A stretch of DNA of 64,000 nt from Zobellia roscoffensis (GTDB taxonomy: Bacteria > Bacteroidota > Bacteroidia > Flavobacteriales > Flavobacteriaceae), in assembly GCF_015330165.1 (NCBI RefSeq), contig NZ_JADDXT010000002.1:1812663-1876662 (forward strand), in the 5' to 3' direction. Numbering within the stretch: position 1 is the stretch's first letter; each line of letters begins with the position of its first letter. The notes beneath the pieces were generated by a model that had not been told where the DNA came from, made no database searches, and saw only the letters and a program-made list of their open reading frames with translations. The position numbers and the translations under genes were made by a program. This document shows positions 46,601 through 62,306 of this stretch, piece after piece.

Positions 46601-46768
46601 GGTGCTCAAAACTTAGCAACATTTACTAAGTATTCTGGTTATGATCCAGAAGTTGGTAGAACGCAGAGTTTTCAAAAGGGTGAGTTTACATTGGCTACAG
46701 GTCAAGATGGTGGAGCTTCACCAACACCTAGAATCTTTCAGTTAGGGTTATCCGTAACGTTCAATTAA
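43670..46768 (+). CDS. susC: SusC/RagA-type TonB-dependent outer-membrane transporter.
   Basis: Signal peptide, CarbopepD-like domain (ISGTTSDDQGVLPGVNVLVKGTTVGSVSDFDGNYSI), plug with the SusC-specific segment, a 1032 aa barrel and a C-terminal ...SVTFN. Confidence 0.95.
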   Translation: MNQNFKRLNRVRSHGFVLAALFFFSVASLCAQTTISGTTSDDQGVLPGVNVLVKGTTVGSVSDFDGNYSIEVPEGSSALVFSYVGYSKQEVAIDGRTTINVTLAEDAQALSEVVVVGYGTQRKADLTGAVGSISSADIVSKPITSPDQALAGTISGVNITNRSGDPGAPISVLIRGVGTAGNTDPLWVIDGIPIVQTTNITVNTSSTTDSNPLAGLNANDIESIDVLKDAASTAIYGSRAANGVIIVTTKRGKSGDAKVTYNGYVSTSTARDRIDVLDVEQFIDIQGQLGRDLSEFSGSPYVDWQDLIFQTGFIQNHNVSVSGGNDKAKYFISGGLLDQDGIELAQGFKRYSLKANSEINVGKYLKFGESILLSQTDRQVQSEQGIYAGFNSALNAPYYQPYGNGAFGYNDSTPETRGNGITANNYLFNTDDRYTTTNLQTRKILASFYGELQILDGLRFRPSLGIDYNVGVGDYFTSDAVLNNSTGSSLLVSSRPIELTLTSAATLQYDKTFGDHNIGALFGFEQTKFRFDKLRVQGRSLFNENFASTGEVGTVGAANEADLWTLQGWLGRLTYNYQGKYLATFNIRRDATSRFSPDNRTDVFPSVSLGWRVSDEEFFPKDGAFDDLKIRAGWGQSGNQASPTNFPYLSAVDSNIRYVIGDDQGTVTAPAPTTFANQDLFWETSTQFDVGLDFSLFNYKLTGSFDYYNKVNDGVLIGLPLPYVSGFFLAPDANIGSIKNSGLELSLNYAGEAGDFTYSIGGNFTTNNNEVTDLGEVTQIITGIGGASTHRTIEGESLGHFYGYKTDGLYQNDAEVAAAVPDANGTPSPGDIRFVDVNGDGIVDADDRTELGSPFPGFYYGMNFNAAYKGFDFSINFRGVGNKQVYNSARIALEDLSSGNNFSTQVLDRWTGEGTATSSSNPRLTLNDPNGNNRYSDRWIEDAGYLRIQNAQIGYNLPQDLLTSWTNDMISNFRIYVGAQNLATFTKYSGYDPEVGRTQSFQKGEFTLATGQDGGASPTPRIFQLGLSVTFN

Positions 46769-46790
46769 GTTTAAAAAATTATAAAATATT

Positions 46791-48317
46791 ATGAAAAAAA
46801 TAATTGTATTTTTTGCATGTGCATCACTGTTAGGAGTTCTCTCCTGTGGTGACCAGCTAGACCTTGAGCCTCTGGACCGTGTGACTACGGATCAGTTTTA
46901 CAAAACAAGAACGGATTTTGATGGAGCTGTTTTTGCTTCCTATTCATCTATCCAAGATTTTTGGGGAACTAGTACTGAGACGTTGGGTGAAAGAGGTGAG
47001 TTTTGGAAAATCTCCTTGGCAATAACCGATGATGTAGCAGCCGATGAAGTAAACGGAACTTCTTCTAGAGATATAGATAACCTCTTACTTCGTTCTAATG
47101 ATGTTCCTTTCGGAGCAGTTTACACTCAGATTTATGAAGGTATATATAGAGCAAATATTGTACTTGAAAATCTTGAAAAAGAGAATGAGTTAACTGCAGA
47201 AGATAAGACCATAATTAATGCCGAAGCTAAATTTTTAAGAGCTTGGTTTCATTTTCAGGCTATGAAGATGTTTGGTACGCCACCTTTAGCCCTAGATATT
47301 AGAACAGATATTAATGATCAGGCCAGACCAAATGCAACACAAGAAGAATTATATGCCGCAATATTGGCAGATTTGGCTGAAGCTGAGGCAGGTCTTCCTG
47401 CTGATTGGGATGGCTCTAATACAGGTAGAGTTACCTTATGGACTGCTAAAGCGTATATTGGTAAAGTAAATGTTTGGAAAGAAGATTGGCCAACAGCTAT
47501 TACGGCACTAGAAGAGGTTGTTAATTCGGGACCTTATGTTTTGGTTCCAGACTATGAGCAGTTATTTGCTTACACGAATGAGAATAATTCAGAATCTATT
47601 TTTGAAATCCAGTATGGTGGTCCGTTTTCTGATGATAACCTTTGGGTTTTTGATGATACACACTCAGAAGATTTTAAAGCTTCTCAAGGAACGGCGCGAG
47701 GAAATTATTGGGATGCAGGTGGTGATGCACCGGGCGGAAAACAAGGTCAGTGGGTTCCTACTCAAGATTTAGTGGATGCTTATGAGGCAGGTGATGAAAG
47801 ATTAGCGGTTACTGTATATCAAGATGGTGATATGTATTATTCTTTTGATGGAACGCGTTATGAAATTCCTTATGATCCTGCTTGGTCTTCGTCAGGGTAT
47901 ACTTTGAAGAAGTATAGAGGAACTTTAAATGCTGTAGTAGGTAACTCTTCTGCTAACGGACAAGTAGATTTTAACAATGAGCGTTGGTTTAGATTTGCAG
48001 AAGCTAAATTACTTTATGCGGAAGCTTTGATTCAAGGTGGAGGTGATGTTGGACTTGCTTTTGACGAAATAGATGATATTCGTGATAGAGCTGGTCTAGG
48101 TCTTGTTGACCGTTCGTTAGACCCTATGGACGCGTTAATGCAGGAAAAAAGAGTAGAGCTGGCCTTAGAACCACACAGGTACTTTGATATTACTAGATGG
48201 GGAATTGGAGCTGAGATTTTTGGAGCTGCTTGGGACGATAAATACAATGTATTTCCGTTTCCACTTACAGAAATTGATAGGTCTAAAGGTTTGCTAATCC
48301 AGAACTCAGGATATTAA
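46791..48317 (+). CDS. susD: SusD/RagB-family surface glycan-binding lipoprotein.
   Basis: Lipobox LSCGD. TPR-like SusD fold with WF..R/EL motifs. Immediately downstream of SusC. Confidence 0.9.
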   Translation: MKKIIVFFACASLLGVLSCGDQLDLEPLDRVTTDQFYKTRTDFDGAVFASYSSIQDFWGTSTETLGERGEFWKISLAITDDVAADEVNGTSSRDIDNLLLRSNDVPFGAVYTQIYEGIYRANIVLENLEKENELTAEDKTIINAEAKFLRAWFHFQAMKMFGTPPLALDIRTDINDQARPNATQEELYAAILADLAEAEAGLPADWDGSNTGRVTLWTAKAYIGKVNVWKEDWPTAITALEEVVNSGPYVLVPDYEQLFAYTNENNSESIFEIQYGGPFSDDNLWVFDDTHSEDFKASQGTARGNYWDAGGDAPGGKQGQWVPTQDLVDAYEAGDERLAVTVYQDGDMYYSFDGTRYEIPYDPAWSSSGYTLKKYRGTLNAVVGNSSANGQVDFNNERWFRFAEAKLLYAEALIQGGGDVGLAFDEIDDIRDRAGLGLVDRSLDPMDALMQEKRVELALEPHRYFDITRWGIGAEIFGAAWDDKYNVFPFPLTEIDRSKGLLIQNSGY

Positions 48318-48432
48318 TAATCTTCTTTTAGGGTTTCCCTAAAAAGTATAGTAATTTTACTGAAAGGAATCCAATTTTGAATAACCCCTAGATTGGATTC
48401 CTTTCTATTTATAGACGTTTTTAATTTCTTTC

Positions 48433-51400
48433 ATGTTCGCTACGTATAAAATCAGTTTGTTTTATTACTCGCTCTTCTCCTGCGTGGTATTATGTATTTT
48501 ATCATGCTCTAAGAATGAAAAAACACTTTTTAAAGAAATAACATCTTCTGAATCTGGTCTAACGTTTCAAAATAAACTAAACCTAACAGATACACTTACC
48601 ATACTAGATTTTGAGTATATGTACAATGGCGCTGGTGTTGCTGTGGCCGATTTTGATTTGGACGGCCTTCAGGATGTCTATTTTACGGGAAATATGGTGA
48701 GCAACCGCCTGTATCGTAACCAAGGTAATTTTAAGTTTGAAGATATTACTGAGTCGGCAAATGTGGGTTCTACGCATTGGTCTAATGGTGTGGCTATAGT
48801 TGATATTAATCAAGATGGTTTTCCTGATATTTATGTTTGTAGAGCAGGGCCAAGAAATGCAAAAAGTGAAAACAAAGCGAACCTATTGTTTGTAAATAAT
48901 GGTTTAAAGGATGGTAAGTTGTCTTTTACTGAAGAAGCTCAAAAATGGGGGTTGGCAGACACAAGTTATTCAGTGCAATCGGTTTTCTTTGATTATGATG
49001 GAGATGGCGATTTAGATATGTACCTTTTGAACAATGCATTGGTAGATTTTAATAGAAATACGGCAAAACCTAAAGAAGGTCGAGAAAAAGTTCCTTCTGT
49101 AGATAAACTCTTTAGAAATGACAGTGGCGAGAACGAAGCTGGGAATCCAGTTTTTACCGATGTTTCGGCCGAATCAGGTATTTCTATTGAAGGGTATGGT
49201 CTTGGTATTGAAGTATGTGATATGAATTCAGATGGTTGGCCAGATATCTATGTGTCCAATGATTTCCTTACGGATGATTTGCTCTATATCAATCAAAAAA
49301 ATGGTACGTTCAAAAATGAAATAGCCTCTTATTTTAAACATCTTACTTTTAATGGTATGGGCAATGATATTGCTGATATTAATAATGACGGGAATATGGA
49401 TGTTGTTGTTTTGGATATGCTTCCGCCAGACAATAAACGGTGGAAACTCACCATGATGGGCAATAATTATGATCAGTTTAGAAATAGACTAGATTACGGT
49501 TATCAACCTCAATATATTAGAAACACACTGCAGCTCAACAATGGCAATGGTTCTTTTAGTGAAGTGGGACAGCTTGCAGGAATTGATGCAACGGAATGGA
49601 GCTGGAGTGCCTTGTTTGCAGATTTTGACCAAGACGGACTTAATGATCTTTGCATTACTAATGGTTACCGACAAGATATTACCAATCTGGACTTTATGGT
49701 CTACGGGGATCGGGTATTAACCATGGGTACAGCAGAGGCCAATCGTAAAAAACGTATTGAAGAACTCAATAAACTACCGGGAATAAAAGAAAACAACTAC
49801 TTCTTCAAGAATACTGGTAACCTAACATTTGAAGATGCTTCTACAGAAGTAGGTTTTGATAAACCAACATACTCTAATGGCATGGCATACGCCGATTTGG
49901 ATAATGATGGCGATTTGGATTTGGTAATGAACAATATTGATGATCCCGCTGGTTTATTTGAAAACACACTTTCTTCAGAGGAAAACAGATACATTAGGTT
50001 CAAGTTTAAAGGTTCTGAAAAGAACAAACAAGCGTTAGGAAGCAAGGTCGAAATCTTCTATGGGGGTAGTGTACAAAAAAAATATTTCACGCCTTATCGT
50101 GGGTATTTATCTACGGTAGAACAAGCGTTGCATTTTGGAGTGGGCCAATCCAAAGAATTGGATAGCATAAAAGTCATATGGCCCGATGGGAAAACTCAGA
50201 ATCTTCAAGGCGTTGCTGTCAATCAGGAGTTGGTACTTCAGTATGAGAATGCTGTAGAAGGAAAACAAACCAAAAAAAGCGAAACACTTAAAACATGGCT
50301 TCAGCCAATAGATAGTATTGGTCTTAATCGGTTACACGTTGAGAATGAATTTGTAGATTTTAAGGTTCAGGCATTGTTGCCACATATGCATTCTAAAAAT
50401 GGACCGGGAATGGCGGTGGCAGATGTAAATGGCGATGGTTTGGAAGATTTATACGTTGGTGGGGCAACTGGTCAAGCCGGTGCAATACTACTTCAAAAAG
50501 TAGATGGTTCTTTTATAACTTCCGAATTTGAGGAAATGAAAAATGAAGACATGGGTGCGTTGTTTTTTGATGTCGACAATGATGGTGACCAAGATTTGTA
50601 TGTTGTAAGTGGTGGCTCTTCATATCAGGTGGGTGATAAGGCCTACCAAGATAGACTTTATGAAAATGATGGGTTGGGTAACTTTACTCAAACCAATGCA
50701 CTTCCAAATATGTTGGTCAGTGGTTCTGTGGTTACGGCGGCAGATTATGATAAAGATGGTGATTTAGACCTTTTTGTAGGTGGTAGAATAAGACCTGGTG
50801 AATACCCATTATCGCCGGAGAGTTTTCTCTTGAAAAATAACGGTACAGGAACCGGAATAAAGTTTGTAAAAGATGAACAGTCTGCCAATTTAGACCTTAC
50901 CAATTTGGGGATGGTAACTTCGGCCTTATGGACGGATTTTAATAATGATGGCTGGGAAGATTTAATTGTTGTTGGGGAATTTATGGCGGCTCGTTTCTTT
51001 CAGAATAATAAAGGAGAATTGTCCGATGTTACCGAAATAACAGGTCTTTCGCACACTAATGGTTGGTGGAATAGCATTACATCAGGTGATTTTGATAAGG
51101 ATGGAGATACAGATTATGTTTTAGGAAATCTTGGACTCAATAGTAAATTCAAGGCCAGTACAAAAGAACCTTTGTGCGTCTACGCTAGCGACTATGATAA
51201 GAACGGCCAAATAGACCCGGTTATGTGTCATTATGTAGATGGAGAAAACTATGTGGCACACTCACGTAATGATTTAATTAGTCAGGTCAATGCTATGCGC
51301 TCACGCTTCAGGACTTTTTCTGATTATGCAGATGCTACTTTTGAGGAGTCTTTTTTAAAGGAAGAAATAGAGCAAGCGCACGTGGTACGAAGTGAAACTT

Positions 51401-51969
51401 TTGCTAATTCGTATCTTGAGAATTTGGGAAATGGAAAATTCAGGCTTTCAGAATTGCCAAGAGCTGCCCAAATTGCGCCTATGTATGGCATGATGGTTGG
51501 CGATTATAATAATGATCAAAATTTAGATGTTTTGGCAGTTGGTAATTTCTACAGTGGGGAAGTGTTTTCAGGCAGGTATGATGCCGCTATAGGATGGTTG
51601 TTGCTTGGTGATGGTATAGGAGGTTTTAGTAAAGCCGATGTCTCTCAAAGCGGATTTTTCGTAGATGGGGATGCAAAAAGCCTAGTTAGCTTAAATGCTG
51701 GTGATAGAGAATTACTTATAGCGGGAATGAATAATGCCGGTTTAAAAAGCTTTTATCGACCTATAAAAAATAGAATTTATAAACCGAAGCCCAATGAGGT
51801 ATCAGCTTTGGTCACTTTTGATAATGGAACGAAACAAAAAGTAGAATTCCATTATGGGGCGGGTTATCTTTCAAGCTCAAGCCGAAATTTTAATGTTCCA
51901 GATTCTGCAGTTTCCCTAAAGGTTATAGATGTAAATGGTGTTGAAACTGAAATCTTGAAAAAACCATGA
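48433..51969 (+). CDS. Lipoprotein with two FG-GAP-type (integrin alpha-like) 7-bladed beta-propellers plus ASPIC/UnbV domains (CRTAC1 family).
   Basis: Lipobox ILSCS. Fourteen Ca-binding DxDxDGxxD loops (for example DFDLDGLQD, DINQDGFPD, DYDGDGDLD, DLDNDGDLD, DVNGDGLED, DYDKDGDLD). UnbV_ASPIC-like segments lie after each propeller. Confidence 0.8.
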   Translation: MFATYKISLFYYSLFSCVVLCILSCSKNEKTLFKEITSSESGLTFQNKLNLTDTLTILDFEYMYNGAGVAVADFDLDGLQDVYFTGNMVSNRLYRNQGNFKFEDITESANVGSTHWSNGVAIVDINQDGFPDIYVCRAGPRNAKSENKANLLFVNNGLKDGKLSFTEEAQKWGLADTSYSVQSVFFDYDGDGDLDMYLLNNALVDFNRNTAKPKEGREKVPSVDKLFRNDSGENEAGNPVFTDVSAESGISIEGYGLGIEVCDMNSDGWPDIYVSNDFLTDDLLYINQKNGTFKNEIASYFKHLTFNGMGNDIADINNDGNMDVVVLDMLPPDNKRWKLTMMGNNYDQFRNRLDYGYQPQYIRNTLQLNNGNGSFSEVGQLAGIDATEWSWSALFADFDQDGLNDLCITNGYRQDITNLDFMVYGDRVLTMGTAEANRKKRIEELNKLPGIKENNYFFKNTGNLTFEDASTEVGFDKPTYSNGMAYADLDNDGDLDLVMNNIDDPAGLFENTLSSEENRYIRFKFKGSEKNKQALGSKVEIFYGGSVQKKYFTPYRGYLSTVEQALHFGVGQSKELDSIKVIWPDGKTQNLQGVAVNQELVLQYENAVEGKQTKKSETLKTWLQPIDSIGLNRLHVENEFVDFKVQALLPHMHSKNGPGMAVADVNGDGLEDLYVGGATGQAGAILLQKVDGSFITSEFEEMKNEDMGALFFDVDNDGDQDLYVVSGGSSYQVGDKAYQDRLYENDGLGNFTQTNALPNMLVSGSVVTAADYDKDGDLDLFVGGRIRPGEYPLSPESFLLKNNGTGTGIKFVKDEQSANLDLTNLGMVTSALWTDFNNDGWEDLIVVGEFMAARFFQNNKGELSDVTEITGLSHTNGWWNSITSGDFDKDGDTDYVLGNLGLNSKFKASTKEPLCVYASDYDKNGQIDPVMCHYVDGENYVAHSRNDLISQVNAMRSRFRTFSDYADATFEESFLKEEIEQAHVVRSETFANSYLENLGNGKFRLSELPRAAQIAPMYGMMVGDYNNDQNLDVLAVGNFYSGEVFSGRYDAAIGWLLLGDGIGGFSKADVSQSGFFVDGDAKSLVSLNAGDRELLIAGMNNAGLKSFYRPIKNRIYKPKPNEVSALVTFDNGTKQKVEFHYGAGYLSSSSRNFNVPDSAVSLKVIDVNGVETEILKKP

Positions 51970-54900
51970 AAATGTTGAAACCTTTAATATTTGTGTTGGG
52001 TCTCACATTTCTATTTGTGGGTTGTGGTGAGAAAGAAACGCATCGTTTCAGGTTGCTTGATGCGTCAAAAACGGGCATCGATTTTCAAAATACGATTACG
52101 GAAAACGATAGCATTAATGTTTTTGAATTCATGAATGTGTATACCGGTGCTGGTGTTGCGGTAGGAGATATTGATAATGATGGCCTCACGGATGTGTATT
52201 TTAGCGGGAACATGGTTTCAGGTAGGTTGTATCGGAATAAAGGAAATTTTCAGTTTGAGGATATTACTGAAAAATCAGGACTGCTCAATACCCGTTGGGG
52301 AACAGGGGTAAGTATGGTAGATATTAACCAAGATGGATTTTTAGATATTTATGTGTGCGTTTCAGGAAGTGCAGAGGTTTCCGAGCGAGCCAATATGCTT
52401 TATATTAATAACGGTGATATGACCTTTACCGAAATGGCCGAGGAGTATGGTCTTGCGGATACGCGGCAAAGCATGCATGCTGCTTTTATGGATTACGATA
52501 AGGATGGCGATTTGGATATGTATCTTTTGGTAAACCCTGCGGCATACGAATACAATGTAAATGTGAGCAAACCACGTGAAGTAGAAGGGCAATCTGTCAG
52601 TAATGACCGCTTATATGAAAACATGGGTAACGGTAAGTTTCAGGATATTTCCGATAAAGCAGGAATTGTACTGGAGGGCTATGGACTTGGTGTAGGCATC
52701 TCAGACATTAATGGTGATAACTGGCCGGATATTTATGTATCCAATGATTTTATTGGGAATGATATTCTCTATATCAACCAAAAAGATGGCACGTTCAAAG
52801 ACCAGATTACAGAGCAAATAAAGCATACCTCATATGCGGGAATGGGTAACGATGTTGCAGATGTGGATAATAATGGTGAGCCCGATATTATGGTATTGGA
52901 TATGCGCCCAGAAGATAATGAACGTCAAAAATTGATTATTTCCTCAACGGGTTATGACCGTTTTCAAATTATGTTAGATGCAGGTTACAATGCACAATAC
53001 AGTCGCAATACGCTGCAGTTAAACCAAGGCCGGGATAAGTTTAGTGAAGTAGGTTTTATGGCAGGCATTAGTAGTACGGATTGGAGTTGGAGCCCGTTAT
53101 TAGCAGATTATGATAATGATGGCCGTAAAGATTTATACGTTACCAATGGTTTTTTAAGGGATTTGGGAGATTTAGATTATATCCATTATCAGAAGGCCTA
53201 TGATAATCCCGTAGGTGATGTGGATACAAAAATCCAAATGAAATTGAAATCCATAAGTGAACTGCCCATGGCAGATTTACCAAACTACGCCTATCGTAAT
53301 AAAGGGGATATGACTTTTGAAAAAGTTTCCGATAGTTGGGGGATTGATAAAGCCAGTTGTTCCCATGGTGCGGCATATGCCGATCTGGATAATGATGGGG
53401 ATTTGGATTTACTGGTGAACAATATGGATCAACCTGCTTTTGTATATGAAAACGTGGGCCTTCCAGAGAAAAAAAATCACTATTTAAAAATTAAGCTGAA
53501 AGGTGAAAAAGGCAATCTTCAAGGGATAGGAGCAAAATTGAAGCTGACAACCACAGATTCGGAACAATTTTACCAACATTATTTGAGTCGGGGATATGAG
53601 TCTAGCGTAGATCCTACAGTACATTTTGGTTTGGGTAAATCCAAAGAGATAGAGAGTATTGAGGTTTGGTGGCCAAACGGTACATATCAGATTTTGAATA
53701 ATCAGGCAGTAGATACGGTCTTGGTGTTGCAACAGTCAAATGCAACCAAAGATATTCCACAGAAAAAAGAATTTAAAAAACAATTTTTCTCTGATGTAAC
53801 GGATAGTTTAGGTGTAAGCTTTAAGCATCAAGAAGACGACTTCGTAGATTTTAAACTACAGCCTATTTTACCGCACATGCATTCACGAAACGGACCAGGT
53901 TTAGCTGTTTCGGATGTAAATGGAGATGGCTTGGAAGATTTTTATATTGGCGGAGCAATTGGTCAACCAGGAGAATTACTTTTACAAAAAACTGACGGAA
54001 GTTTTGTTTCAAAGGAAGGTTTTGATGCCGATTTTGAGGACCTGGGTGTCCTATTGTTTGATGCTAATGGTGATGGGTATAATGACCTCTATGTGGTTAG
54101 TGGTGGTGTAAGTGCAAGTGTTGATGCTGGAAAATTTCAAGATAGGCTATACGTGAATGATGGTAAAGGTGGTTTTATGTTGTCTGATGCTTTGCCTGCC
54201 ATTAGTGCAAGTGGATCGTGCGTAGTTGCTAATGATTATGACAAAGATGGAGACCTGGATTTGTTTGTAGGGGGTAGGGTTAATCCTGGTAAATATCCAA
54301 TGCCTGCACAAAGTTATTTGCTCGAAAACCAATCATCCGGTAGTGATTTCAAGTTCGTTGATGCGAGCAATACAATAGAAGGTTGGAAAGAATTGACTAT
54401 GGTTACTTCTGCTTTATGGACAGATTATGATAATGATGGGTGGACAGACCTTATTGCGGTAGGTGAATTTATGCCTATCAGTATTTTTCATAACGAAAAA
54501 GGAAAGCTTGTTCTGCAAAAGGAAGGCACTGGATTAACAAAAACTGAAGGTTGGTGGAACAGCATTAACGGAGGAGATTTTGACCAAGATGGCGATGTAG
54601 ATTATATTCTTGGTAACCTTGGTCTTAACAGTAAGTACACTGTTACTGCAGATGAGCCACTTTGTATCTATGCTAAGGATTATGATAAAGACGGTCGGGT
54701 AGACCCTATAATGTGTTATTTTATTAATGGTGAAAACCATTTAGCGCATTCGCGTGATGAGATTATTGGTCAGGTTAATGCCATGCGGAGCAGATTTAAA
54801 ACCTATAAATCATATGCCGAAACTAATTTTGAAAAATCATTTTTGCAGGAAGAATTGAAAGACGCTTATGTGGTAAAGAGTTATACTTTCTCAAGTAGTT

Positions 54901-55475
54901 ATGTAGAAAATCAAGGGAATGGAAAATTTAAACTCCATGAGCTTCCATTGGAATTGCAAACAGCACCTATTCAGGGTGTGGTGGTCAGTGATTTTAATGA
55001 AGATGGAAATCTAGATGTGCTCATGACGGGTAACTCGTATGCTACAGAAGCGGCAACAGGACGTTATGATGCATTTGTTGGGGCTTTCTTAAAAGGAAAC
55101 GGTAAAGGTTCTTTTGAAAATATTTCTATAGCTGAAAGCGGGTTTTTAAGTGATTGGGATGCGAGTGGTTTGGCTTTGATTCATATGGGTGACGGAAGAC
55201 AAAATATATTGGCGGCAAATAATGATAATCAACTAAAAATATTTCAGCAGACAGAACTCGGAAATGGAAAGGTGATTAATGTAGGGGCAAATGCACTTTC
55301 GGCTGTTATTAAATTAAAGAACGGGCAGAAATACAAGAAGGAGTTTTACTTTGGTTCGGGATATTTATCTCAAAGTAGCAGAAGTATTGGCTTAAATAAG
55401 AATATTAGAGAGATTGAGGTTATAGATAAAAATGGAAATACAAAAACAGTGTATTTAGATGAAGCAGTTAAGTAG
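51966..55475 (+). CDS. Paralogous FG-GAP / ASPIC-UnbV (CRTAC1 family) lipoprotein. Tandem duplicate of the preceding gene.
   Basis: Lipobox LFVGCG. Same domain order and DxDxDG loops, collinear with 48433..51969 along the whole length. Its start ATGA overlaps the upstream stop. Confidence 0.8.
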   Translation: MKMLKPLIFVLGLTFLFVGCGEKETHRFRLLDASKTGIDFQNTITENDSINVFEFMNVYTGAGVAVGDIDNDGLTDVYFSGNMVSGRLYRNKGNFQFEDITEKSGLLNTRWGTGVSMVDINQDGFLDIYVCVSGSAEVSERANMLYINNGDMTFTEMAEEYGLADTRQSMHAAFMDYDKDGDLDMYLLVNPAAYEYNVNVSKPREVEGQSVSNDRLYENMGNGKFQDISDKAGIVLEGYGLGVGISDINGDNWPDIYVSNDFIGNDILYINQKDGTFKDQITEQIKHTSYAGMGNDVADVDNNGEPDIMVLDMRPEDNERQKLIISSTGYDRFQIMLDAGYNAQYSRNTLQLNQGRDKFSEVGFMAGISSTDWSWSPLLADYDNDGRKDLYVTNGFLRDLGDLDYIHYQKAYDNPVGDVDTKIQMKLKSISELPMADLPNYAYRNKGDMTFEKVSDSWGIDKASCSHGAAYADLDNDGDLDLLVNNMDQPAFVYENVGLPEKKNHYLKIKLKGEKGNLQGIGAKLKLTTTDSEQFYQHYLSRGYESSVDPTVHFGLGKSKEIESIEVWWPNGTYQILNNQAVDTVLVLQQSNATKDIPQKKEFKKQFFSDVTDSLGVSFKHQEDDFVDFKLQPILPHMHSRNGPGLAVSDVNGDGLEDFYIGGAIGQPGELLLQKTDGSFVSKEGFDADFEDLGVLLFDANGDGYNDLYVVSGGVSASVDAGKFQDRLYVNDGKGGFMLSDALPAISASGSCVVANDYDKDGDLDLFVGGRVNPGKYPMPAQSYLLENQSSGSDFKFVDASNTIEGWKELTMVTSALWTDYDNDGWTDLIAVGEFMPISIFHNEKGKLVLQKEGTGLTKTEGWWNSINGGDFDQDGDVDYILGNLGLNSKYTVTADEPLCIYAKDYDKDGRVDPIMCYFINGENHLAHSRDEIIGQVNAMRSRFKTYKSYAETNFEKSFLQEELKDAYVVKSYTFSSSYVENQGNGKFKLHELPLELQTAPIQGVVVSDFNEDGNLDVLMTGNSYATEAATGRYDAFVGAFLKGNGKGSFENISIAESGFLSDWDASGLALIHMGDGRQNILAANNDNQLKIFQQTELGNGKVINVGANALSAVIKLKNGQKYKKEFYFGSGYLSQSSRSIGLNKNIREIEVIDKNGNTKTVYLDEAVK

Positions 55476-56781
55476 TATACTCATATTATGTTTGGTTTTA
55501 TTGGTGTCCTGTGGCACCAAGCACAATCAAGAAGGGCTAGATGCTTATTTTGAAGGAGGTTTATCAAACTATAATCGTCAGCTTACAAATGTTATAGTTG
55601 CTGATATTTTTACCCCGCCAGTAGCAAGTAGAATTTATGCGTATTCCAACGTGGCCGCCTATGAGGGTATTCGTTTTGCAGATGCATCAAAGGAGTCTTT
55701 AGTGTCTAAGTTGAATGATTTAGATAAATTATCAGAACCGGAAGCTGGTAAAAAATATTATTACCCATTGGTTTCTGCGGTGGCTTTCATGAATGTGGGT
55801 AAAGCCTTGGTGTTTGATTTGGATAAAGTGGAAGCTATTAAGAGTAGTATGTTGACCGAAGTTAAGGATATCGGTATTGACGAAGCAGTTTACCAAAATT
55901 CAGTATCCTTTGGAGAAAAATTGGCAACTGAAATCTTGAGTTGGGCAGCAAAAGATGGATACTTGCGCCGTACTGCGCTTCCTAGATATTCGGTAAGTGA
56001 TGATGCGGGTCGTTGGAGGCCAACCCCTCCAGATTATATGGAGGCCATAGAGCCACATTGGAACACCATTAGACCCTTTGTTTTAGAATCTGCTGGACAA
56101 TTTGATCCTGGACTTCCTACTGCTTTTAATATTGAAAAAGATTCTAAGTTTTATGAGGAAGCTGTTGAGGTGTATGAAACCGTAAATAAATTAGATGATA
56201 AGCAATTGGAGGTCGCCAAGTTTTGGGACTGTAATCCTAATATATCTCATACCAAGGGGCATGTCATGTATTTTCAGCAGCAAATATCACCCGGAGGACA
56301 TTGGATGCACATTGCAGCACAAGTATTGGAAGAAGAAAAAGCTGATGGCGTAACAGCTGCTGAAACCATGTCTTTGTTAGGAGTGACAATTGCAGATGCA
56401 TTTATCAGTTGTTGGGATCAGAAGTATAAGAGTAGTTTAACCAGGCCAGAAACGTATATCAATAATTACATAGACCAAGATTGGGAGCCTATTCTTCAAA
56501 CACCGGCTTTTCCTGAGCATACATCAGGACACAGTGTGGCTTCTAGTGCCGCAGCAACGGCCTTAACGGAGTTGTTTGGTGAGAACTATGCTTTTGTGGA
56601 TGCAACCGAAGTTCCATACGGTCTTCCTCCAAGAAGTTTTCAGTCGTTTTGGCAAGCTGCAGAAGAAGCAGCTATTAGTCGCTTATATGGAGGAATACAC
56701 TATAGACCTGCTATTGAACTTGGCGTTGCGCAGGGAAAGGCAGTAGGAGGGTTTGTTATAAAACGCCTTAAGTCTGACTAA
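55459..56781 (+). CDS. PAP2-superfamily lipoprotein of the vanadium-dependent haloperoxidase / acid-phosphatase type.
   Basis: Lipobox LLVSCG. All three PAP2 motifs are present: K-x6-RP (KYKSSLTRP), PSGH-like (PEHTSGHS) and SR-x5-H-x3-D-like (SRLYGGIHYRPAIE). Overlaps the upstream gene by 17 nt. Confidence 0.7.
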   Translation: MKQLSSILILCLVLLVSCGTKHNQEGLDAYFEGGLSNYNRQLTNVIVADIFTPPVASRIYAYSNVAAYEGIRFADASKESLVSKLNDLDKLSEPEAGKKYYYPLVSAVAFMNVGKALVFDLDKVEAIKSSMLTEVKDIGIDEAVYQNSVSFGEKLATEILSWAAKDGYLRRTALPRYSVSDDAGRWRPTPPDYMEAIEPHWNTIRPFVLESAGQFDPGLPTAFNIEKDSKFYEEAVEVYETVNKLDDKQLEVAKFWDCNPNISHTKGHVMYFQQQISPGGHWMHIAAQVLEEEKADGVTAAETMSLLGVTIADAFISCWDQKYKSSLTRPETYINNYIDQDWEPILQTPAFPEHTSGHSVASSAAATALTELFGENYAFVDATEVPYGLPPRSFQSFWQAAEEAAISRLYGGIHYRPAIELGVAQGKAVGGFVIKRLKSD

Positions 56782-57262: not shown

Positions 57263-59032
57263 ATGATTGTAAACACTACCCTAACAGCAACCTCCGACAT
57301 AACGATTATCGGTGCAGAGCAAAATTTCCAAACGTCACTTAAAAAAGTACATGATCATGAAGGTACAGTGGTCTATGATTTTGAAGTAGCAGGAGATGAG
57401 AAACAGATACCGAAACCTATAACGCTACAATGGAAGGTTCCTGCGATTAATGTAAAGGGAGTTTGGAAGCCTACAACAGATTTTAACAAACGTATTCAGG
57501 CAGATTGGGAGTTAGATAATATGGAATCTAGAATTTCTATTGATTCTCCTGTGATTTCCCTTTTTGGTAATAGTGATGAGAATATTTTAACTTTTGCTTG
57601 TTCCAATGCCATTAATAAATTAGAAATGAATGCGCGTTTGCGTGAGGAGGACAATTGTTTTTATTGCTATATCACTTTTTTTATGGAACAACATTACCCT
57701 CTTAAAAATTTCAAAGCACAGATAAGACTTGATCATCAAAATCAGCATTTTTCTGATAGTCTCCGTGCCGTATCTTCTTGGTGGGAAACTTTTGAGCAGT
57801 TAAAACCAGCTTATGTTCCGGATATCGCTAAAAAACCATTGTATTCTACCTGGTATCAATTTCATCAAAACTTAGAAATACCACTACTTTTAGAGGAATG
57901 TAGATTGGCCAAGGATTTAGGTTACGAGGCAATTATTATTGATGACGGTTGGCAGACATTTGACTCTAATAGAGGGTATGATTTTACTGGAGATTGGCAG
58001 CCGGACCGTATTCCTGAAATGGCGGAATTCGTAAAAAGTGTGCATGAAACAGGAATGAAAGTAGCCCTTTGGTATTCCGTTCCGTTTTGTGGTGAAAAAT
58101 CAAAAGCTTTCAAACGTTTTAAAGGGAAATTCTTGACGGAAGACCATAGATGGGCACCAGTTTTTGATCCGCGCTACCCAGATGTACGACAATATTTAAT
58201 CGATATTTATTCAAGTGCTGCTAAAGACTGGAATCTAGATGGCTTTAAACTCGATTTTATAGACGATTTTAGATTTTATAAAGACACACCTACGAAATTA
58301 GGAGCAGATGCGGATTACGCTTCTATTAACGGTGCGGTTGACCGTTTGTTAACAGACGTAAAAAATGCTTTAACAGAAATAAACCCCGAAATCTTTATTG
58401 AGTTCAGACAAAAATATACTGGACCGGCAATGCGTAAGTATGGCAATATGTTCCGGGCTTTTGATTGCCCGGGAGATGCCACTATGAACCGTTTGCGAAT
58501 TGCAGATATACGTATGCTTGCGGGTAACACAGCAGTGCATTCTGATATGGTTACCTGGCATGAAGATGAACCTTTGGAAATTGCAGCACTTCAGGTAATC
58601 AACACGCTTTTTGGGGTTCCTCAACTGTCAATTATGTTGAGTGAAACTCCTAAAGAGTATGTAAATATGATTGGGTTTTATACTAAATATTGGAATGAAA
58701 ATGCCGATGTTCTTATGAACGGTGATTTTCTTCCTTCTAAACCTCTTGCCAACTATCCCACGAAGCGAGTTTCTAAAAATGGGCAAGTCATTATTGGAGT
58801 ATATGATACTTGGATTATTGAACTTAACGAAGCACATAATTTAGTCGATATCTTAAATGCACAGATAGCGAATCAGGTTGTTATCAGAAATACGAAAGAC
58901 TTAGGAGCGTATCGTTGTAAAATTTATGATTGCCAAGGAAGTTTGATACGGGAAGATAATGTAGTATTTTCGAAAGGCGTACTTGAAATTGAGGTTCCCG
59001 CTTGTGGAATCATCAAAGCCGAGAAAATATAA
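57263..59032 (+). CDS. Cytoplasmic glycoside hydrolase, GH36-like (clan GH-D alpha-galactosidase family).
   Basis: IIIDDGWQ....GDW...IPEMAEFVKSVHETGMKVALWYSVP closely tracks the GH36 catalytic-domain consensus (DDGWF...GDW...vH..GMKFGLW). Candidate nucleophile in FKLDFID (the KWD equivalent). No signal peptide. Confidence 0.6.
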   Translation: MIVNTTLTATSDITIIGAEQNFQTSLKKVHDHEGTVVYDFEVAGDEKQIPKPITLQWKVPAINVKGVWKPTTDFNKRIQADWELDNMESRISIDSPVISLFGNSDENILTFACSNAINKLEMNARLREEDNCFYCYITFFMEQHYPLKNFKAQIRLDHQNQHFSDSLRAVSSWWETFEQLKPAYVPDIAKKPLYSTWYQFHQNLEIPLLLEECRLAKDLGYEAIIIDDGWQTFDSNRGYDFTGDWQPDRIPEMAEFVKSVHETGMKVALWYSVPFCGEKSKAFKRFKGKFLTEDHRWAPVFDPRYPDVRQYLIDIYSSAAKDWNLDGFKLDFIDDFRFYKDTPTKLGADADYASINGAVDRLLTDVKNALTEINPEIFIEFRQKYTGPAMRKYGNMFRAFDCPGDATMNRLRIADIRMLAGNTAVHSDMVTWHEDEPLEIAALQVINTLFGVPQLSIMLSETPKEYVNMIGFYTKYWNENADVLMNGDFLPSKPLANYPTKRVSKNGQVIIGVYDTWIIELNEAHNLVDILNAQIANQVVIRNTKDLGAYRCKIYDCQGSLIREDNVVFSKGVLEIEVPACGIIKAEKI

Positions 59033-59042
59033 CGAACTTCAA

Positions 59043-59603
59043 ATGACCGAAAAAGAGAAAATGATTGGTGGAAAACCTTATAACCCTCATGATAAGGAGT
59101 TGGTTAGAGGTAGGTTGAACGCAAGAAGACTAATGCGTGAAATTGAAGCCATACCCATGGATAAGGAACGGCAACGTAAACATTTTTTCAAAGAGTTATT
59201 TGCTGAGACCGGTAAAAATTTTTACATAGAGAATCGTTTTACTTGCGATTATGGCTTCAATATTTATTGGGGGGAAAACTCATACGCTAATTTTGATTGT
59301 ATTATTTTGGATGCAGCGCCAGTTTACATTGGTAAGAATGTTATGATAGCTCCTGCGGTAAAACTTCTTACGGCAACGCATCCTCTTGAATTTGAAGCAC
59401 GCAATTCCGGCATTGAATACGCAAAACCTATAAGAATAGGTGATAACGTTTGGATTGGCGGCGGGGTAATCGTTAATCCAGGGGTTACAATAGGAAATAA
59501 CAGTGTTATAGGTTCTGGTAGTGTTGTGGTAAAAGACATTCCTGAAAATGTAGTAGCTGTTGGTAATCCGTGTCGCGTACTAAAGAAAATTGATAACTCA
59601 TAA
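59043..59603 (+). CDS. maa: Maltose/galactoside O-acetyltransferase (Maa/LacA family, left-handed beta-helix).
   Basis: ORF 58983..59603. The ATG at 59043 gives MTEKEKMIGGKPYNP, the Maa N-terminus. Hexapeptide repeats (IGDNVWIGGGVIVNPGVTIGNNSVIGSGSVV). Confidence 0.85.
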   Translation: MTEKEKMIGGKPYNPHDKELVRGRLNARRLMREIEAIPMDKERQRKHFFKELFAETGKNFYIENRFTCDYGFNIYWGENSYANFDCIILDAAPVYIGKNVMIAPAVKLLTATHPLEFEARNSGIEYAKPIRIGDNVWIGGGVIVNPGVTIGNNSVIGSGSVVVKDIPENVVAVGNPCRVLKKIDNS

Positions 59604-59648
59604 TTATAGCTCTTCACTCTCTCAACACCAACTTAAAACACTAAAAAT

Positions 59649-62143: not shown

Positions 62144-62306
62144 AATAAGTGCAAAACTAGATTTATTCTGTAAAGCTTCAAGGTTTAAAGACAAAAAAAT
62201 AGAATTTGTTGGTTGTTCTAGTGAATAGGGGGTTGTTCCTGTTAATTTACGAAATAAATGAATAGAGTTGTAGATAACAGGATTAATGAAAAAGGAGAAC
62301 TCTGTT

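What the first reader, a model, noticed from the sequence alone, without database searches (positions are those of the whole stretch)
48433..55475. Tandem paralogous 1170-aa double-propeller lipoproteins, translationally coupled
Two adjacent genes encode collinear proteins. Each has about 14 DxDxDGxxD calcium loops, which fits two 7-bladed FG-GAP propellers, interleaved with ASPIC/UnbV segments. The second start overlaps the first stop (ATGA at 51966-51969). The third gene overlaps the second by 17 nt. Ancient duplication with divergence (identity is moderate, not a recent copy) suggests sub-functionalisation toward two ligands.
Basis: seen in the sequence. Interest (0 to 1): 0.55.

Follow-up and report, generated by a model that had tools for sequence, protein, structure and literature searches.

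The report
Paired calcium double-propeller lipoproteins beside haloperoxidase
Two adjacent, anciently duplicated genes of a marine Zobellia bacterium encode large calcium-binding double-propeller lipoproteins of a huge but uncharacterised family; they are ordinary members of it, yet they sit in a conserved nutrient-uptake gene cassette that always ends in a vanadium (iodo)peroxidase gene, which gives a testable lead to their function.

Summary
Genes A (48433-51969, 1178 aa) and B (51966-55475, 1169 aa) are full-length paralogues, 50% identical over 1158 aa. Their ATGA overlap is conserved in 12 of 14 orthologous loci, and the next gene overlaps B by 17 nt.

The window is Zobellia roscoffensis, and RefSeq calls both proteins "VCBS repeat-containing protein". 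The family is huge, with 6,255 representatives at 50% identity at E<=1e-30.

New context:
- A and B belong to a cassette, SusC-SusD-A-B-vanadium haloperoxidase, kept across Flavobacteriaceae genera and in two MAGs labelled Cytophagales and Agriterribacter.
- The crystallised iodoperoxidase Zg-VIPO1 lies directly after three such genes.
- A and B form separate old clades under purifying selection.
- 29 of 33 clade-specific fixed differences lie in the N-terminal propeller.

Most likely they are non-redundant substrate-handling lipoproteins of this SusCD-haloperoxidase system. The substrate and any catalysis remain unknown.

Verdict: a new member of a known, uncharacterised family, of moderate interest.

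The parts
42278..43291 (+). GntR-HTH / LacI-type sugar-binding transcriptional regulator. It lies upstream of the cassette and co-occurs with it in other genera.
   Evidence: Pfam GntR 1.1e-09 and Peripla_BP_3 1e-06. RefSeq name 'GntR family transcriptional regulator'. Synteny.
43670..46768 (+). SusC-like TonB-dependent transporter (1032 aa)
   Evidence: Pfam CarbopepD_reg_2 and Plug. The Z. galactanivorans orthologue ZGAL_2084 is annotated 'SusC-like TonB-dependent transporter'.
46791..48317 (+). SusD-like lipoprotein (508 aa). Orthologues carry an acidic C-x-D-[QE]-L-D-L motif after the lipid Cys.
   Evidence: Pfam SusD_RagB and SusD-like_3. N-termini of orthologues.
48362..48405 (+). Conserved hairpin between susD and gene A, followed by a T-rich run. 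The core is AATCCAAT-loop-ATTGGATT at 48368-48399. Probably a partial terminator, attenuator or RNA stability element.
   Evidence: RNA fold of the 115-nt susD-A spacer (48318-48432) that contains it: -30.5 kcal/mol, z = -4.1. The same stem sequence with a variable loop sits at the same position in orthologous loci. It occurs once in the 64-kb window against 0 expected.
48433..51969 (+). Gene A: a 1178-aa lipoprotein (Cys25). Layout: N-propeller about aa 61-512, UnbV_ASPIC sandwich about 513-612, C-propeller about 656-1112, degenerate second sandwich about 1113-1178.
   Evidence: Exact RefSeq match WP_194529401.1 'VCBS repeat-containing protein [Zobellia roscoffensis]'.
51966..55475 (+). Gene B: a 1169-aa paralogous lipoprotein with the same architecture (UnbV_ASPIC at aa 520-586). 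Its start overlaps A's stop (ATGA).
   Evidence: The RefSeq model WP_194529402.1 is 1167 aa.
55459..56781 (+). Gene C: a vanadium-dependent haloperoxidase-family lipoprotein (440 aa) that overlaps B by 17 nt. It is the orthologue of Z. galactanivorans ZGAL_2088.
   Evidence: PDB 4CIT/4USZ (Zg-VIPO1) E 2.5e-135 over the full length, with the K/R/SGH/R/H vanadate-site residues aligned identically. 100% identical to 'vanadium-dependent haloperoxidase [Zobellia roscoffensis]'. Locus-tag inference.
57263..59032 (+). GH36-like glycoside hydrolase without a signal peptide, so probably cytoplasmic. It is the only recognisable CAZyme near the cassette.
   Evidence: RefSeq name 'glycoside hydrolase family 36 protein'. 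Weak Pfam Melibiase/GH31 hits. PDB alpha-galactosidases at 1e-6. N-terminus.
59043..59603 (+). Maltose/galactoside O-acetyltransferase-like hexapeptide transferase
   Evidence: Pfam Mac and Hexapep. Start inferred from the first Met and the 186-aa Z. galactanivorans orthologue.
59649..61298 (+). Sodium:solute symporter (SSF)
   Evidence: Pfam SSF 2.1e-52. NCBIfam NF007790 at 739 bits.

Best explanation
A and B are two non-redundant, membrane-anchored lipoproteins of the bacterial CRTAC1 / ASPIC-UnbV family.

Shown:
- Each protein is a tandem of two CRTAC1-like modules. A module is a Ca2+-loop-stabilised FG-GAP beta-propeller, probably seven-bladed, followed by a small beta-sandwich.
- They are co-encoded with overlapping start and stop codons in a five-gene cassette: SusC, SusD, A, B, vanadium haloperoxidase. 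The cassette is conserved across Flavobacteriaceae genera and in two MAGs labelled Cytophagales and Agriterribacter.

Inferred:
- A, B and the haloperoxidase are made in fixed proportion from one transcript, and at a lower level than SusC/D because of the hairpin after susD.
- They act together as the substrate-handling part of the SusC/D import machine. The propeller faces and their conserved insertions bind the imported or captured compound.
- The shared C-terminal propeller does a common job, such as docking to a partner or holding a common part of the ligand. The diverged N-terminal propellers of A and B recognise different features.
- The neighbouring, probably cytoplasmic GH36, acetyltransferase and Na+ symporter genes suggest that the end product is a small alpha-galactoside.

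Whether A and B only bind or also catalyse a step is not resolved. I favour binding or presentation, because the only structurally characterised relative (CRTAC1) has no known enzymatic activity and no catalytic signature is conserved across the family.
For: - Cassette conservation: SusC-SusD-A-B-VHPO is present in Zobellia, Maribacter, Flagellimonas/Allomuricauda, Spongiimicrobium and a Cytophagales MAG. The contig of the Agriterribacter MAG starts at gene A and shows A-B-VHPO only.
- Across 79 loci, 43 of 58 with enough upstream sequence have SusC/D on the same strand, 25 of 69 have a VHPO gene directly downstream, and 32 of 78 carry 2-3 tandem copies.
- The crystallised Zg-VIPO1 lies directly after three tandem family members, with gaps of 1-8 nt.
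- Overlapping junctions are conserved.
- A and B form separate clades. Both are under purifying selection: dN/dS is 0.05-0.06, although dS is saturated.
- 329 positions are fixed identically in both clades, and 33 are fixed differently. Of the 33, 29 lie in the N-propeller.
- In Z. galactanivorans, ZGAL_2084 (SusC), ZGAL_2086 and ZGAL_2087 rise together, log2FC 1.0-1.6, on Ascophyllum versus alginate (PMC9296495 Supp. Table).
- Reg, GH36 and SSF co-occur with the cassette in varied orientations. In a Saprospiraceae MAG they sit with GalT, GalK and a GlpD-like gene.
- GH36 lacks a signal peptide.
Against: - No binding or activity data exist for any bacterial family member that I could find (searches returned nothing relevant).
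- A and B lack the acidic post-Cys motif that their own SusD carries. They may therefore face the periplasm rather than the surface, which does not fit a SusE/F-like surface glycan-binding role.
- Their sequence conservation is high for glycan-binding accessory proteins: about 65% identity between genera, similar to SusC/D. The propeller loops and insertions are densely conserved.
- The cassette contains no secreted or periplasmic CAZyme, which leaves room for A and B being the missing enzymes.
- The link to the GH36/SSF module is only by neighbourhood. Other lineages have GH13 plus LacI, or sulfatases, next to the cassette instead.
Confidence: 0.45

Rival explanations
1. A and B are enzymes of a new type, for example a propeller-based glycan or phenolic depolymerase. 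They act in the periplasm on material imported by SusC/D, and they supply the activity that the cassette otherwise lacks.
For: - The conserved cassette has no recognisable secreted CAZyme. The only glycoside hydrolase nearby, GH36, lacks a signal peptide.
- There is no conserved surface-export motif after the lipid Cys.
- The loops after strand 2 of each blade and the blade-5/6 insertions are very strongly conserved. These include His303, His635, His651, His943, Arg363, Arg785, Arg945 and Arg958 within the A and B clades.
- These conserved insertions are the low-pLDDT parts of the model, as expected for lids or active-site loops.
Against: - None of those His or Arg residues is conserved at 95% or more across the 119 wider family members that occupy the same genomic position.
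- The closest solved relative, CRTAC1, has no known enzymatic activity.
Confidence: 0.25
2. A and B are functional partners of the vanadium iodoperoxidase in halogen/peroxide chemistry. They might generate H2O2, capture the oxidised iodine species, or present an organic acceptor. On this view the cassette is an iodine-dependent oxidative processing or iodine-uptake system rather than a classical glycan locus.
For: - VHPO genes lie directly downstream, usually overlapping, in 25 of 69 loci, and in every orthologous locus with enough flank.
- Both Z. galactanivorans VHPO paralogues examined follow ASPIC/UnbV genes: ZGAL_2086-2088, and the locus of a protein 100% identical to crystallised VIPO1, found in Zobellia sp. 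OII3; ZGAL_1259, three tags before ZGAL_1262, carries the same annotation.
- All seven vanadate-site residues are retained in gene C.
- Iodine uptake by the flavobacterium Arenibacter sp. C-21 needs H2O2 generation, a haloperoxidase and Ca2+, and its genome has at least five VIPO homologues (PMC5064120). Another Arenibacter genome (sp. F26102) carries close homologues of both A and C.
- From my own memory, unverified here: UnbV/E4, the protein that named the domain, is part of the minimal enediyne cassette. That cassette was reported in 2024 to make iodinated polyynes without any recognised halogenase.
Against: - 44 of 69 loci have no VHPO gene directly downstream.
- The cassette also occurs in MAGs assigned to Spirosomataceae, Agriterribacter, Ohtaekwangia and Chryseolinea, groups I know as freshwater or soil bacteria rather than marine ones.
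- No redox cofactor motif was detected in A or B.
- The enediyne link could not be checked.
Confidence: 0.12
3. A and B are redundant duplicates, kept only for dosage, with no functional differentiation.
For: They are 50% identical, collinear and share the same domain layout. 329 positions are fixed identically in both clades.
Against: - The order A then B, and the two clades, are maintained across genera and in the two distant MAGs.
- Both copies are under purifying selection.
- 33 positions are fixed differently, clustered in the N-propeller loops.
- Three-copy arrays in Aquimarina also show position-specific clades.
Confidence: 0.05

Closest known systems
CRTAC1 / ASPIC (cartilage acidic protein 1; crystal structure 9ETN, mouse)
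   Different: CRTAC1 has a single module plus an EGF-like domain, and it is a vertebrate extracellular-matrix protein. A and B are lipoproteins with the module duplicated in tandem and no EGF domain. They are encoded in a bacterial SusC/D cassette. CRTAC1's known roles give no direct clue to a bacterial function.
The (ASPIC/UnbV)x3 - Zg-VIPO1 array of Zobellia (ZGAL_1259..1262; locus L081)
   Same: The same protein family and the same logic. Tandem double-propeller genes are packed 1-8 nt apart and are immediately followed by a vanadium haloperoxidase-family gene. ZGAL_1259 carries the same annotation. This type also follows SusC/SusD in Aquimarina.
   Different: There are three copies rather than two. 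They are only about 40% identical to A and B and form their own position-specific clades. The haloperoxidase is a paralogue, about 47% identical to gene C, and a GyrI-like gene follows it.
SusE/SusF-type surface glycan-binding lipoproteins of polysaccharide utilisation loci
   Same: They are lipoproteins encoded directly downstream of susC/susD and often occur as tandem paralogues. They are presumed to be accessory substrate-binding partners of the transporter.
   Different: The fold is unrelated: Ig/CBM-like tandem domains rather than double propellers. A and B lack the acidic surface-export motif seen in their SusD. They are much better conserved than typical surface glycan-binding proteins.
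UnbV / E4 of the enediyne polyketide synthase cassette
   Same: It shares the UnbV_ASPIC domain that names Pfam PF07593. One homologue of A is labelled 'enediyne biosynthesis protein E4' by JGI (P0102). Its function is also unknown, and it also belongs to a tightly conserved cassette.
   Different: The phylum and genomic context differ (Actinobacteria; secondary metabolism). I did not compare an E4 sequence directly, and the relation to iodine chemistry rests on my memory only.

Membership tests
CRTAC1 / ASPIC-UnbV family | FG-GAP / VCBS-type propeller repeats | tested here: met
   Pfam FG-GAP_3 scores 249.9 bits (A) and 257.3 bits (B) against a cutoff of 26.9, with 8-9 stretches.
CRTAC1 / ASPIC-UnbV family | UnbV_ASPIC domain (PF07593) above the gathering score | tested here: met
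   80.8 bits (A 534-600) and 89.9 bits (B 520-586) against a cutoff of 23.4. A second, degenerate copy at the C-terminus is seen only by hhalign.
CRTAC1 / ASPIC-UnbV family | Three-dimensional similarity to the solved CRTAC1 structure | tested here: met
CRTAC1 / ASPIC-UnbV family | C-terminal EGF-like Ca2+-binding domain of vertebrate CRTAC1 | tested here: not met
   There is no EGF hit in Pfam. A and B are bacterial homologues of the propeller-plus-sandwich module, not orthologues of CRTAC1.
Integrin-alpha-type Ca2+-binding FG-GAP propeller | DxDxDGxxD-type Ca2+ loops between strands 1 and 2 of the blades | tested here: met
   13-14 relaxed motifs per protein against 0.07 in shuffles. The Asp/Asn positions are invariant in 54 homologues and conserved at 95% or more in 119 family members. 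Ca2+ binding itself was not tested.
Integrin-alpha-type Ca2+-binding FG-GAP propeller | Seven blades per propeller | tested here: inconclusive
Bacterial lipoprotein | Signal peptide ending in a lipobox with an invariant Cys | tested here: met
   A has ...CILS|C25, B has ...LFVG|C20 and C has ...LLVS|C18. C25 is invariant. The lipobox is conserved in orthologues.
SusE/F-like surface glycan-binding protein of a PUL | Encoded directly downstream of a susC/susD pair on the same strand | tested here: met
   This holds in 43 of 58 related loci.
SusE/F-like surface glycan-binding protein of a PUL | Surface exposure (acidic lipoprotein export signal after the lipid Cys) | tested here: inconclusive
   SusD orthologues carry C-x-D-[QE]-L-D-L. 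A, B and C show no consistent acidic motif. The predictive rule comes from my knowledge of the published Bacteroidota lipoprotein export signal. Localisation was not measured.
SusE/F-like surface glycan-binding protein of a PUL | Binds the target glycan | not testable with these tools
   This needs recombinant protein and candidate ligands.
Beta-propeller polysaccharide lyases (e.g. PL11, PL24/25, PL42) | Sequence or fold match to a lyase family | tested here: not met
Beta-propeller polysaccharide lyases (e.g. PL11, PL24/25, PL42) | Conserved catalytic His/Tyr plus Arg | tested here: inconclusive
   Several His and Arg residues are fixed within the A and B clades (H303, H635, H651, H943, R363, R785, R945, R958). 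None reaches 95% across 119 family members, and the family-wide Tyr134 and Tyr273 sit in the structural D-[IV]-Y-V strands. I could not map the residues in 3D.
Vanadium-dependent haloperoxidase (gene C) | Full-length homology to a characterised VHPO | tested here: met
   4CIT/4USZ Zg-VIPO1 at E 2.5e-135, residues 7-437 of 440. Pfam PAP2. PF22778 VCPO_2nd is precomputed for the identical protein.
Vanadium-dependent haloperoxidase (gene C) | Vanadate-binding Lys, Arg, Ser-Gly-His, Arg, His | tested here: met
   K322, R329, S356-G357-H358, R408 and H414 of C align with identical residues of 4CIT. The assignment of these residues as the vanadate ligands (K324, R331, S358, G359, H360, R410, H416 in Zg-VIPO1) is from my memory of Fournier et al. 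2014, which I could not open.
Polysaccharide utilisation locus | Adjacent susC/susD pair with a regulator and at least one CAZyme | tested here: met
   SusC, SusD, a GntR/LacI-type regulator and a GH36-like gene are present. The only CAZyme lacks a signal peptide, so the locus is atypical.

The most novel reading that the evidence does not exclude
ASPIC/UnbV double-propeller lipoproteins are the dedicated partners of vanadium iodoperoxidases. On this reading the SusC-SusD-(propeller)n-VHPO cassette is an iodine- and peroxide-dependent system for capturing iodine or for oxidatively processing an organic substrate, not a glycan-binding accessory.

The same domain family (UnbV/E4) would then also explain cryptic iodination in enediyne biosynthesis. 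This would give a function to a family of tens of thousands of proteins and a physiological role to bacterial iodoperoxidases.
Probability: 0.12. Interest if true: 0.8.

Novelty: new member of a known kind. Interest (0 to 1): 0.42.

Why it matters
The proteins themselves are already in RefSeq and belong to a very large family. That family has 58,180 representatives at 50% identity at E<=1e-3, and its bacterial function is unknown.

What is useful is the context. The pair is a fixed part of a widespread SusC/SusD cassette whose last gene is a vanadium haloperoxidase. The only crystallised flavobacterial iodoperoxidase sits in the sister version of that cassette.

Zobellia galactanivorans is, to my knowledge, genetically tractable. 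Two open questions therefore become directly testable with defined deletions of ZGAL_2084-2088 and ZGAL_1259-1262:
- What are bacterial iodoperoxidases for?
- What do ASPIC/UnbV propellers do?

The localisation of A/B divergence to the N-terminal propeller says where to look for specificity.

Tried and rejected
- Literature. Searches for UnbV+SusD, ASPIC+PUL, Zobellia+FG-GAP, haloperoxidase+SusD, VCBS+SusD and iodoperoxidase+TonB found nothing describing these proteins or the cassette. The FG-GAP+SusC search was spoiled because the prefix matched 'susceptibility'. The 9ETN paper was not found.
- Papers I could not open. Fournier et al. 2014 and Amachi et al. 2007 are not held. My guessed DOI and PMID for the 2024 enediyne diiodotetrayne paper were wrong, so that link stays unverified.
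- NCBIfam gave no family for A, B or C.
- The sigma-70 promoter and terminator scan was uninformative, with counts at or below shuffle expectation. Bacteroidota promoters are not covered by it.
- dN/dS. Synonymous sites are saturated (dS 1.1-2.5, or undefined) even against the closest species available. The ratios of 0.05-0.06 only show strong purifying selection, so a finer test for positive selection was not possible.
- Foldseek hits after CRTAC1 (DDB1, SF3B3, CPSF160) have rmsd above 24 A. They reflect only 'several propellers in one chain', so I rejected them as meaningless.
- Reading the susD-A palindrome as a DNA operator is unlikely, because the spacing between the arms varies from 3 to 14 nt among orthologues.

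Full report
**1. The observation**

The window carries same-strand ORFs at 48433..51969 (A, 1178 aa), 51966..55475 (B, 1169 aa) and 55459..56781 (C, 440 aa).

The A/B junction reads ccATGAaa. B's ATG is at 51966 and A's TGA is at 51967-51969. C starts 17 nt before B's TAG.

BLASTP of A against B gives 581/1158 identities (50%), 69% positives, 2% gaps and E = 0, collinear over the whole mature proteins. The similarity is therefore not confined to Asp-rich loops.

The strict DxDxDGxxD motif occurs 7 times in A and 8 times in B. A relaxed Ca2+-loop motif occurs 13-14 times in each, split 7 + 7 between the halves, against 0.07 in shuffles.

Pfam finds FG-GAP_3 (8-9 stretches, about 250 bits) and one UnbV_ASPIC domain per protein.

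One caveat concerns B's start. RefSeq models B as 1167 aa, starting at the ATG at 51972. Yet an ATG placed one base before A's stop exists in 12 of 14 orthologous loci, usually as the only candidate. The other two loci have TAAagATG and TGATG. The ATGA overlap is thus the conserved arrangement. B/C overlaps of 17, 4, 8, 14 or 50 nt are likewise conserved.

**2. Identity of the sequence**

All six window proteins looked up are exact matches to Zobellia roscoffensis proteins. A is WP_194529401.1 and the RefSeq model of B is WP_194529402.1; both are named 'VCBS repeat-containing protein'. [quoted passage not shown]

The family is very large. An exhaustive search of 1.84 billion cluster representatives found 58,180 proteins at E<=1e-3 and 6,255 at E<=1e-30. 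The best 150 are nearly all 1,000-1,200 aa and cover most or all of the query. The double-module architecture is therefore itself common.

**3. Anatomy**

A profile-profile comparison of residues 26-612 against 613-1178 (alignment A1, 54 sequences) gives probability 99.3%, E 1.2e-20, over 482 columns. The match includes the C-terminal approximately 65 residues, which align with the Pfam-detected UnbV_ASPIC segment. Each protein is thus an internal tandem duplication of a 'propeller + sandwich' module.

An AlphaFold2 model of A has mean pLDDT 78.5 and pTM 0.78. The low-confidence stretches coincide with highly conserved insertions in blades 5 and 6: 338-364, 414-431 and 944-957.

The DSSP strand pattern fits seven four-stranded blades per half. 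Combining it with the half-versus-half alignment gives this picture:
- The N-terminal propeller has one Ca2+ loop per blade.
- The C-terminal propeller has six blade loops.
- A seventh loop (D920-D928) lies inside an approximately 90-residue insertion.
- The last blade has no loop.

Both proteins, and C, start with a signal peptide and a lipobox Cys. C25 is invariant, and the lipobox is conserved in orthologues.

**4. Surroundings**

Upstream lie a GntR-HTH/LacI-type regulator, a SusC-like transporter and a SusD-like lipoprotein.

Gene C matches the crystal structure of the Z. galactanivorans vanadium iodoperoxidase Zg-VIPO1 (4CIT/4USZ) over its full length at E 2.5e-135. The Lys, Arg, Ser-Gly-His, Arg and His of the vanadate site align identically. 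The identity of those ligands comes from my memory of Fournier et al. 2014, which I could not open. C is 100% identical to a RefSeq 'vanadium-dependent haloperoxidase' of Z. roscoffensis.

Downstream lie a GH36-like protein without a signal peptide, a LacA/Maa-like acetyltransferase and a Na+/solute symporter. This is a lac-operon-like trio for a small alpha-galactoside.

In Z. galactanivorans the same locus is FP476056.1:2417279-2440815. A published expression table gives these tags: ZGAL_2081 hutH, ZGAL_2084 SusC, ZGAL_2086 and ZGAL_2087 ASPIC/UnbV, and ZGAL_2093 deacetylase (PMC9296495). The haloperoxidase is therefore ZGAL_2088. As far as I remember, that is the enzyme called Zg-VIPO2.

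In that dataset ZGAL_2084, 2086 and 2087 rise together (log2FC 1.57, 1.04 and 1.27; P 1.3e-4, 0.013 and 3.8e-4) on Ascophyllum nodosum versus alginate. This is a modest but coherent response.

**5. Comparative evidence**

79 related loci were fetched from species-representative genomes and compared with the window proteins.

The five-gene order SusC-SusD-A-B-VHPO is kept in several lineages:
- Zobellia
- Maribacter
- Flagellimonas/Allomuricauda
- Spongiimicrobium
- an unclassified Flavobacteriaceae strain
- a Cytophagales MAG, whose contig starts inside susD

An Agriterribacter MAG, whose contig starts at gene A, shows A-B-VHPO.

More distant relatives show SusC-SusD followed by one to three copies, often plus a VHPO gene. 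Examples are Aquimarina (three copies plus VHPO), Spirosomataceae and Ohtaekwangia.

Counts across the loci:
- 43 of 58 loci with enough upstream sequence have SusC/D on the same strand.
- 25 of 69 have a VHPO gene directly downstream.
- 32 of 78 carry two or three tandem copies.

I reconstructed the 4CIT sequence from the alignment. It is 67-72% identical to the VHPO genes of the multi-copy loci and about 47% identical to gene C.

The genomic place of a protein 100% identical to it shows three tandem double-propeller genes of 1107, 1119 and 1101 aa, separated by 1-8 nt, immediately before the haloperoxidase. ZGAL_1259, three tags before ZGAL_1262 (the tag I recall for Zg-VIPO1), carries the same ASPIC/UnbV annotation.

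I conclude that the flavobacterial iodoperoxidase family is characteristically encoded as the last gene of such arrays. I found no paper in the searchable library that describes this.

The regulator, GH36 and symporter also travel with the cassette in different orientations, in Maribacter, Allomuricauda, Spongiimicrobium and the Cytophagales MAG. In a Saprospiraceae MAG they sit with GalT, GalK and a glycerol-3-phosphate dehydrogenase/oxidase-like gene. This hints at a galactosyl-glycerol-type end product. Other lineages instead have GH13 plus LacI, or a sulfatase, nearby.

**6. The duplication**

A neighbour-joining tree of 119 full-length family members puts A and B in separate clades. Each clade contains all the Flavobacteriaceae genera plus the Cytophagales and Agriterribacter MAGs. 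The three Aquimarina copies also form position-specific clades. The duplication is therefore old, or the pair has spread as a unit, and gene order is maintained.

Pairwise dN/dS against Z. russellii is 0.051 for A and 0.059 for B. The other genes of the locus give 0.016-0.040. dS is saturated, so this shows only strong purifying selection on both copies.

Among 13 orthologues of each, 329 positions are fixed to the same residue in both clades and 33 are fixed to different residues. Of those 33, 29 lie in the N-terminal propeller: residues 61-65, 117-118, 203-208, 280-307, 340-344 and 412-451, mostly loops and insertions. Two lie in the C-terminal propeller.

This is the signature expected if the C-terminal module does a shared job and the N-terminal module has diverged in specificity. 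It supports non-redundancy but does not identify ligands.

**7. Mechanism**

Shown:
- the architecture;
- lipoprotein signals;
- conserved Ca2+-loop motifs;
- conserved overlapping gene junctions;
- cassette membership;
- purifying selection;
- localised divergence between A and B.

Inferred:
- A, B and the haloperoxidase are co-translated in fixed ratio.
- They work with SusC/D as a substrate-handling unit.

I favour a binding or presentation role (confidence 0.45). CRTAC1, the only solved relative, is not an enzyme, and no catalytic signature is conserved family-wide. At 95% or more, only the Ca2+ loops, glycines, a WSW motif, and several Asn, Gln and Lys residues are conserved. No His or Arg reaches that level.

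Three observations keep an enzymatic role open (0.25):
- SusD orthologues carry an acidic C-x-D-[QE]-L-D-L motif after the lipid Cys, which resembles the Bacteroidota surface-export signal (my knowledge). A, B and C do not carry it, so they may face the periplasm.
- The cassette has no secreted CAZyme.
- The propeller loops are unusually well conserved, including several His and Arg residues within the A and B clades.

A third reading (0.12) ties A and B to the haloperoxidase chemistry itself. Iodine uptake by the flavobacterium Arenibacter sp. C-21 needs H2O2, a haloperoxidase and Ca2+ (PMC5064120). From memory, the enediyne cassette containing UnbV/E4 makes iodinated intermediates without a known halogenase. 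I could not verify the latter.

Arguing against a strictly iodine-specific role, many loci lack a VHPO gene. The cassette also occurs in MAGs assigned to Spirosomataceae, Agriterribacter, Ohtaekwangia and Chryseolinea, which I know as freshwater or soil lineages.

**8. Comparison with the known, and verdict**

A and B meet the defining features of the CRTAC1/ASPIC-UnbV family: FG-GAP repeats, PF07593 and structural match. They lack the vertebrate EGF domain, so they are bacterial homologues of the module.

They occupy the genomic position of SusE/F-like proteins but have an unrelated fold and no clear surface-export motif. They do not meet any test for propeller polysaccharide lyases.

They are new members of a known, functionally uncharacterised kind, and they are already annotated in public databases.

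The added value of this second look has four parts:
- the conserved SusCD-propeller-haloperoxidase cassette;
- the link to a crystallised iodoperoxidase;
- the localisation of A/B divergence to the N-terminal propeller;
- a conserved hairpin upstream of A.

Interest is moderate (0.42).

Noticed in passing
window 48362-48405 (core 48368-48399): A strong hairpin followed by a T-rich run lies between susD and gene A. The 115-nt spacer containing it folds at -30.5 kcal/mol, z = -4.1. The stem sequence GGAATCCART...AYTGGATTCC is conserved, not just the structure, and the loop varies from 3 to 14 nt. It sits at the same spot in orthologous cassettes of Zobellia, Maribacter, Flagellimonas, Spongiimicrobium and strain CP2B. 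It occurs once in the 64-kb window (0 expected) and once in each of ten matching loci, nine of them at the susD-A junction and one (L065) elsewhere. It is probably an attenuator or RNA stability element, but sequence-level conservation of a terminator stem across genera is unusual.
   Followed up: partly
window 43670-56781 compared with L001, L080, L005, L006 and L021: Divergence within Zobellia is mosaic. In Z. barbeyronii, Z. uliginosa and Z. laminariae the flanking genes (GldD, regulator, GH36, SSF) are 84-97% identical to the window, but SusC-SusD-A-B-VHPO are only 63-78% identical. Against Z. russellii, SusC/D are 95% identical but A/B only 82%. Against Z. galactanivorans, SusC/D (73-75%) are more diverged than A/B (80%). 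This suggests that cassette segments are exchanged by recombination, with one breakpoint near the susD-A hairpin.
   Followed up: partly
window 51966-51974: RefSeq annotates B as 1167 aa, with its start at 51972. The 1169-aa form starting at the ATGA overlap is the one conserved in orthologues, so the RefSeq start is probably misannotated by two codons.
   Followed up: yes
window 57263-61298; L059 12716-20853: A signal-peptide-less GH36, a LacA/Maa-like acetyltransferase and a Na+ symporter form a lac-operon-like trio. In a Saprospiraceae MAG the homologous module is joined to GalT, GalK and a glycerol-3-phosphate dehydrogenase/oxidase-like gene. This hints at a galactosyl-glycerol (floridoside-like) substrate.
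   Followed up: partly
L081 1-12259 (Zobellia sp. OII3); L053 and L079 downstream genes: The locus of the crystallised iodoperoxidase Zg-VIPO1 has three tandem double-propeller genes before it and a GyrI-like gene after it. A roughly 300-aa ORF with an N-terminal hydrophobic segment (judged by eye) follows the VHPO gene in Aquimarina and Maribacter stanieri, with no Pfam hit at 1e-5. It may be a further conserved member of that cassette type.
   Followed up: no
L080 494-3497 (Z. galactanivorans, upstream of the regulator): In Z. galactanivorans a histidine ammonia-lyase gene and an FAD-dependent, Trp_halogenase-like gene sit immediately upstream of the cassette's regulator. In the window that position is occupied by a CNNM/CorC-type gene and gldD. 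A flavin-halogenase-like gene next to a vanadium haloperoxidase cassette may be a coincidence or a halogen-metabolism neighbourhood.
   Followed up: no
window 61310-62353 (-) and 62307-63209 (-): A second PAP2-superfamily protein, unrelated in length to the VHPO, and a histone-deacetylase-family protein are encoded on the opposite strand just after the symporter. The same arrangement is present in Z. galactanivorans: PAP2 at the end of L080, and ZGAL_2093 deacetylase.
   Followed up: no
L021 (Zobellia laminariae AS94, NZ_CP130738.1): In this genome SusC, SSF and gene A each appear split or interrupted: the match spans 5 kb and two SusC and two SSF fragments are seen. These are either pseudogenes or frameshift errors in the assembly.
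   Followed up: no
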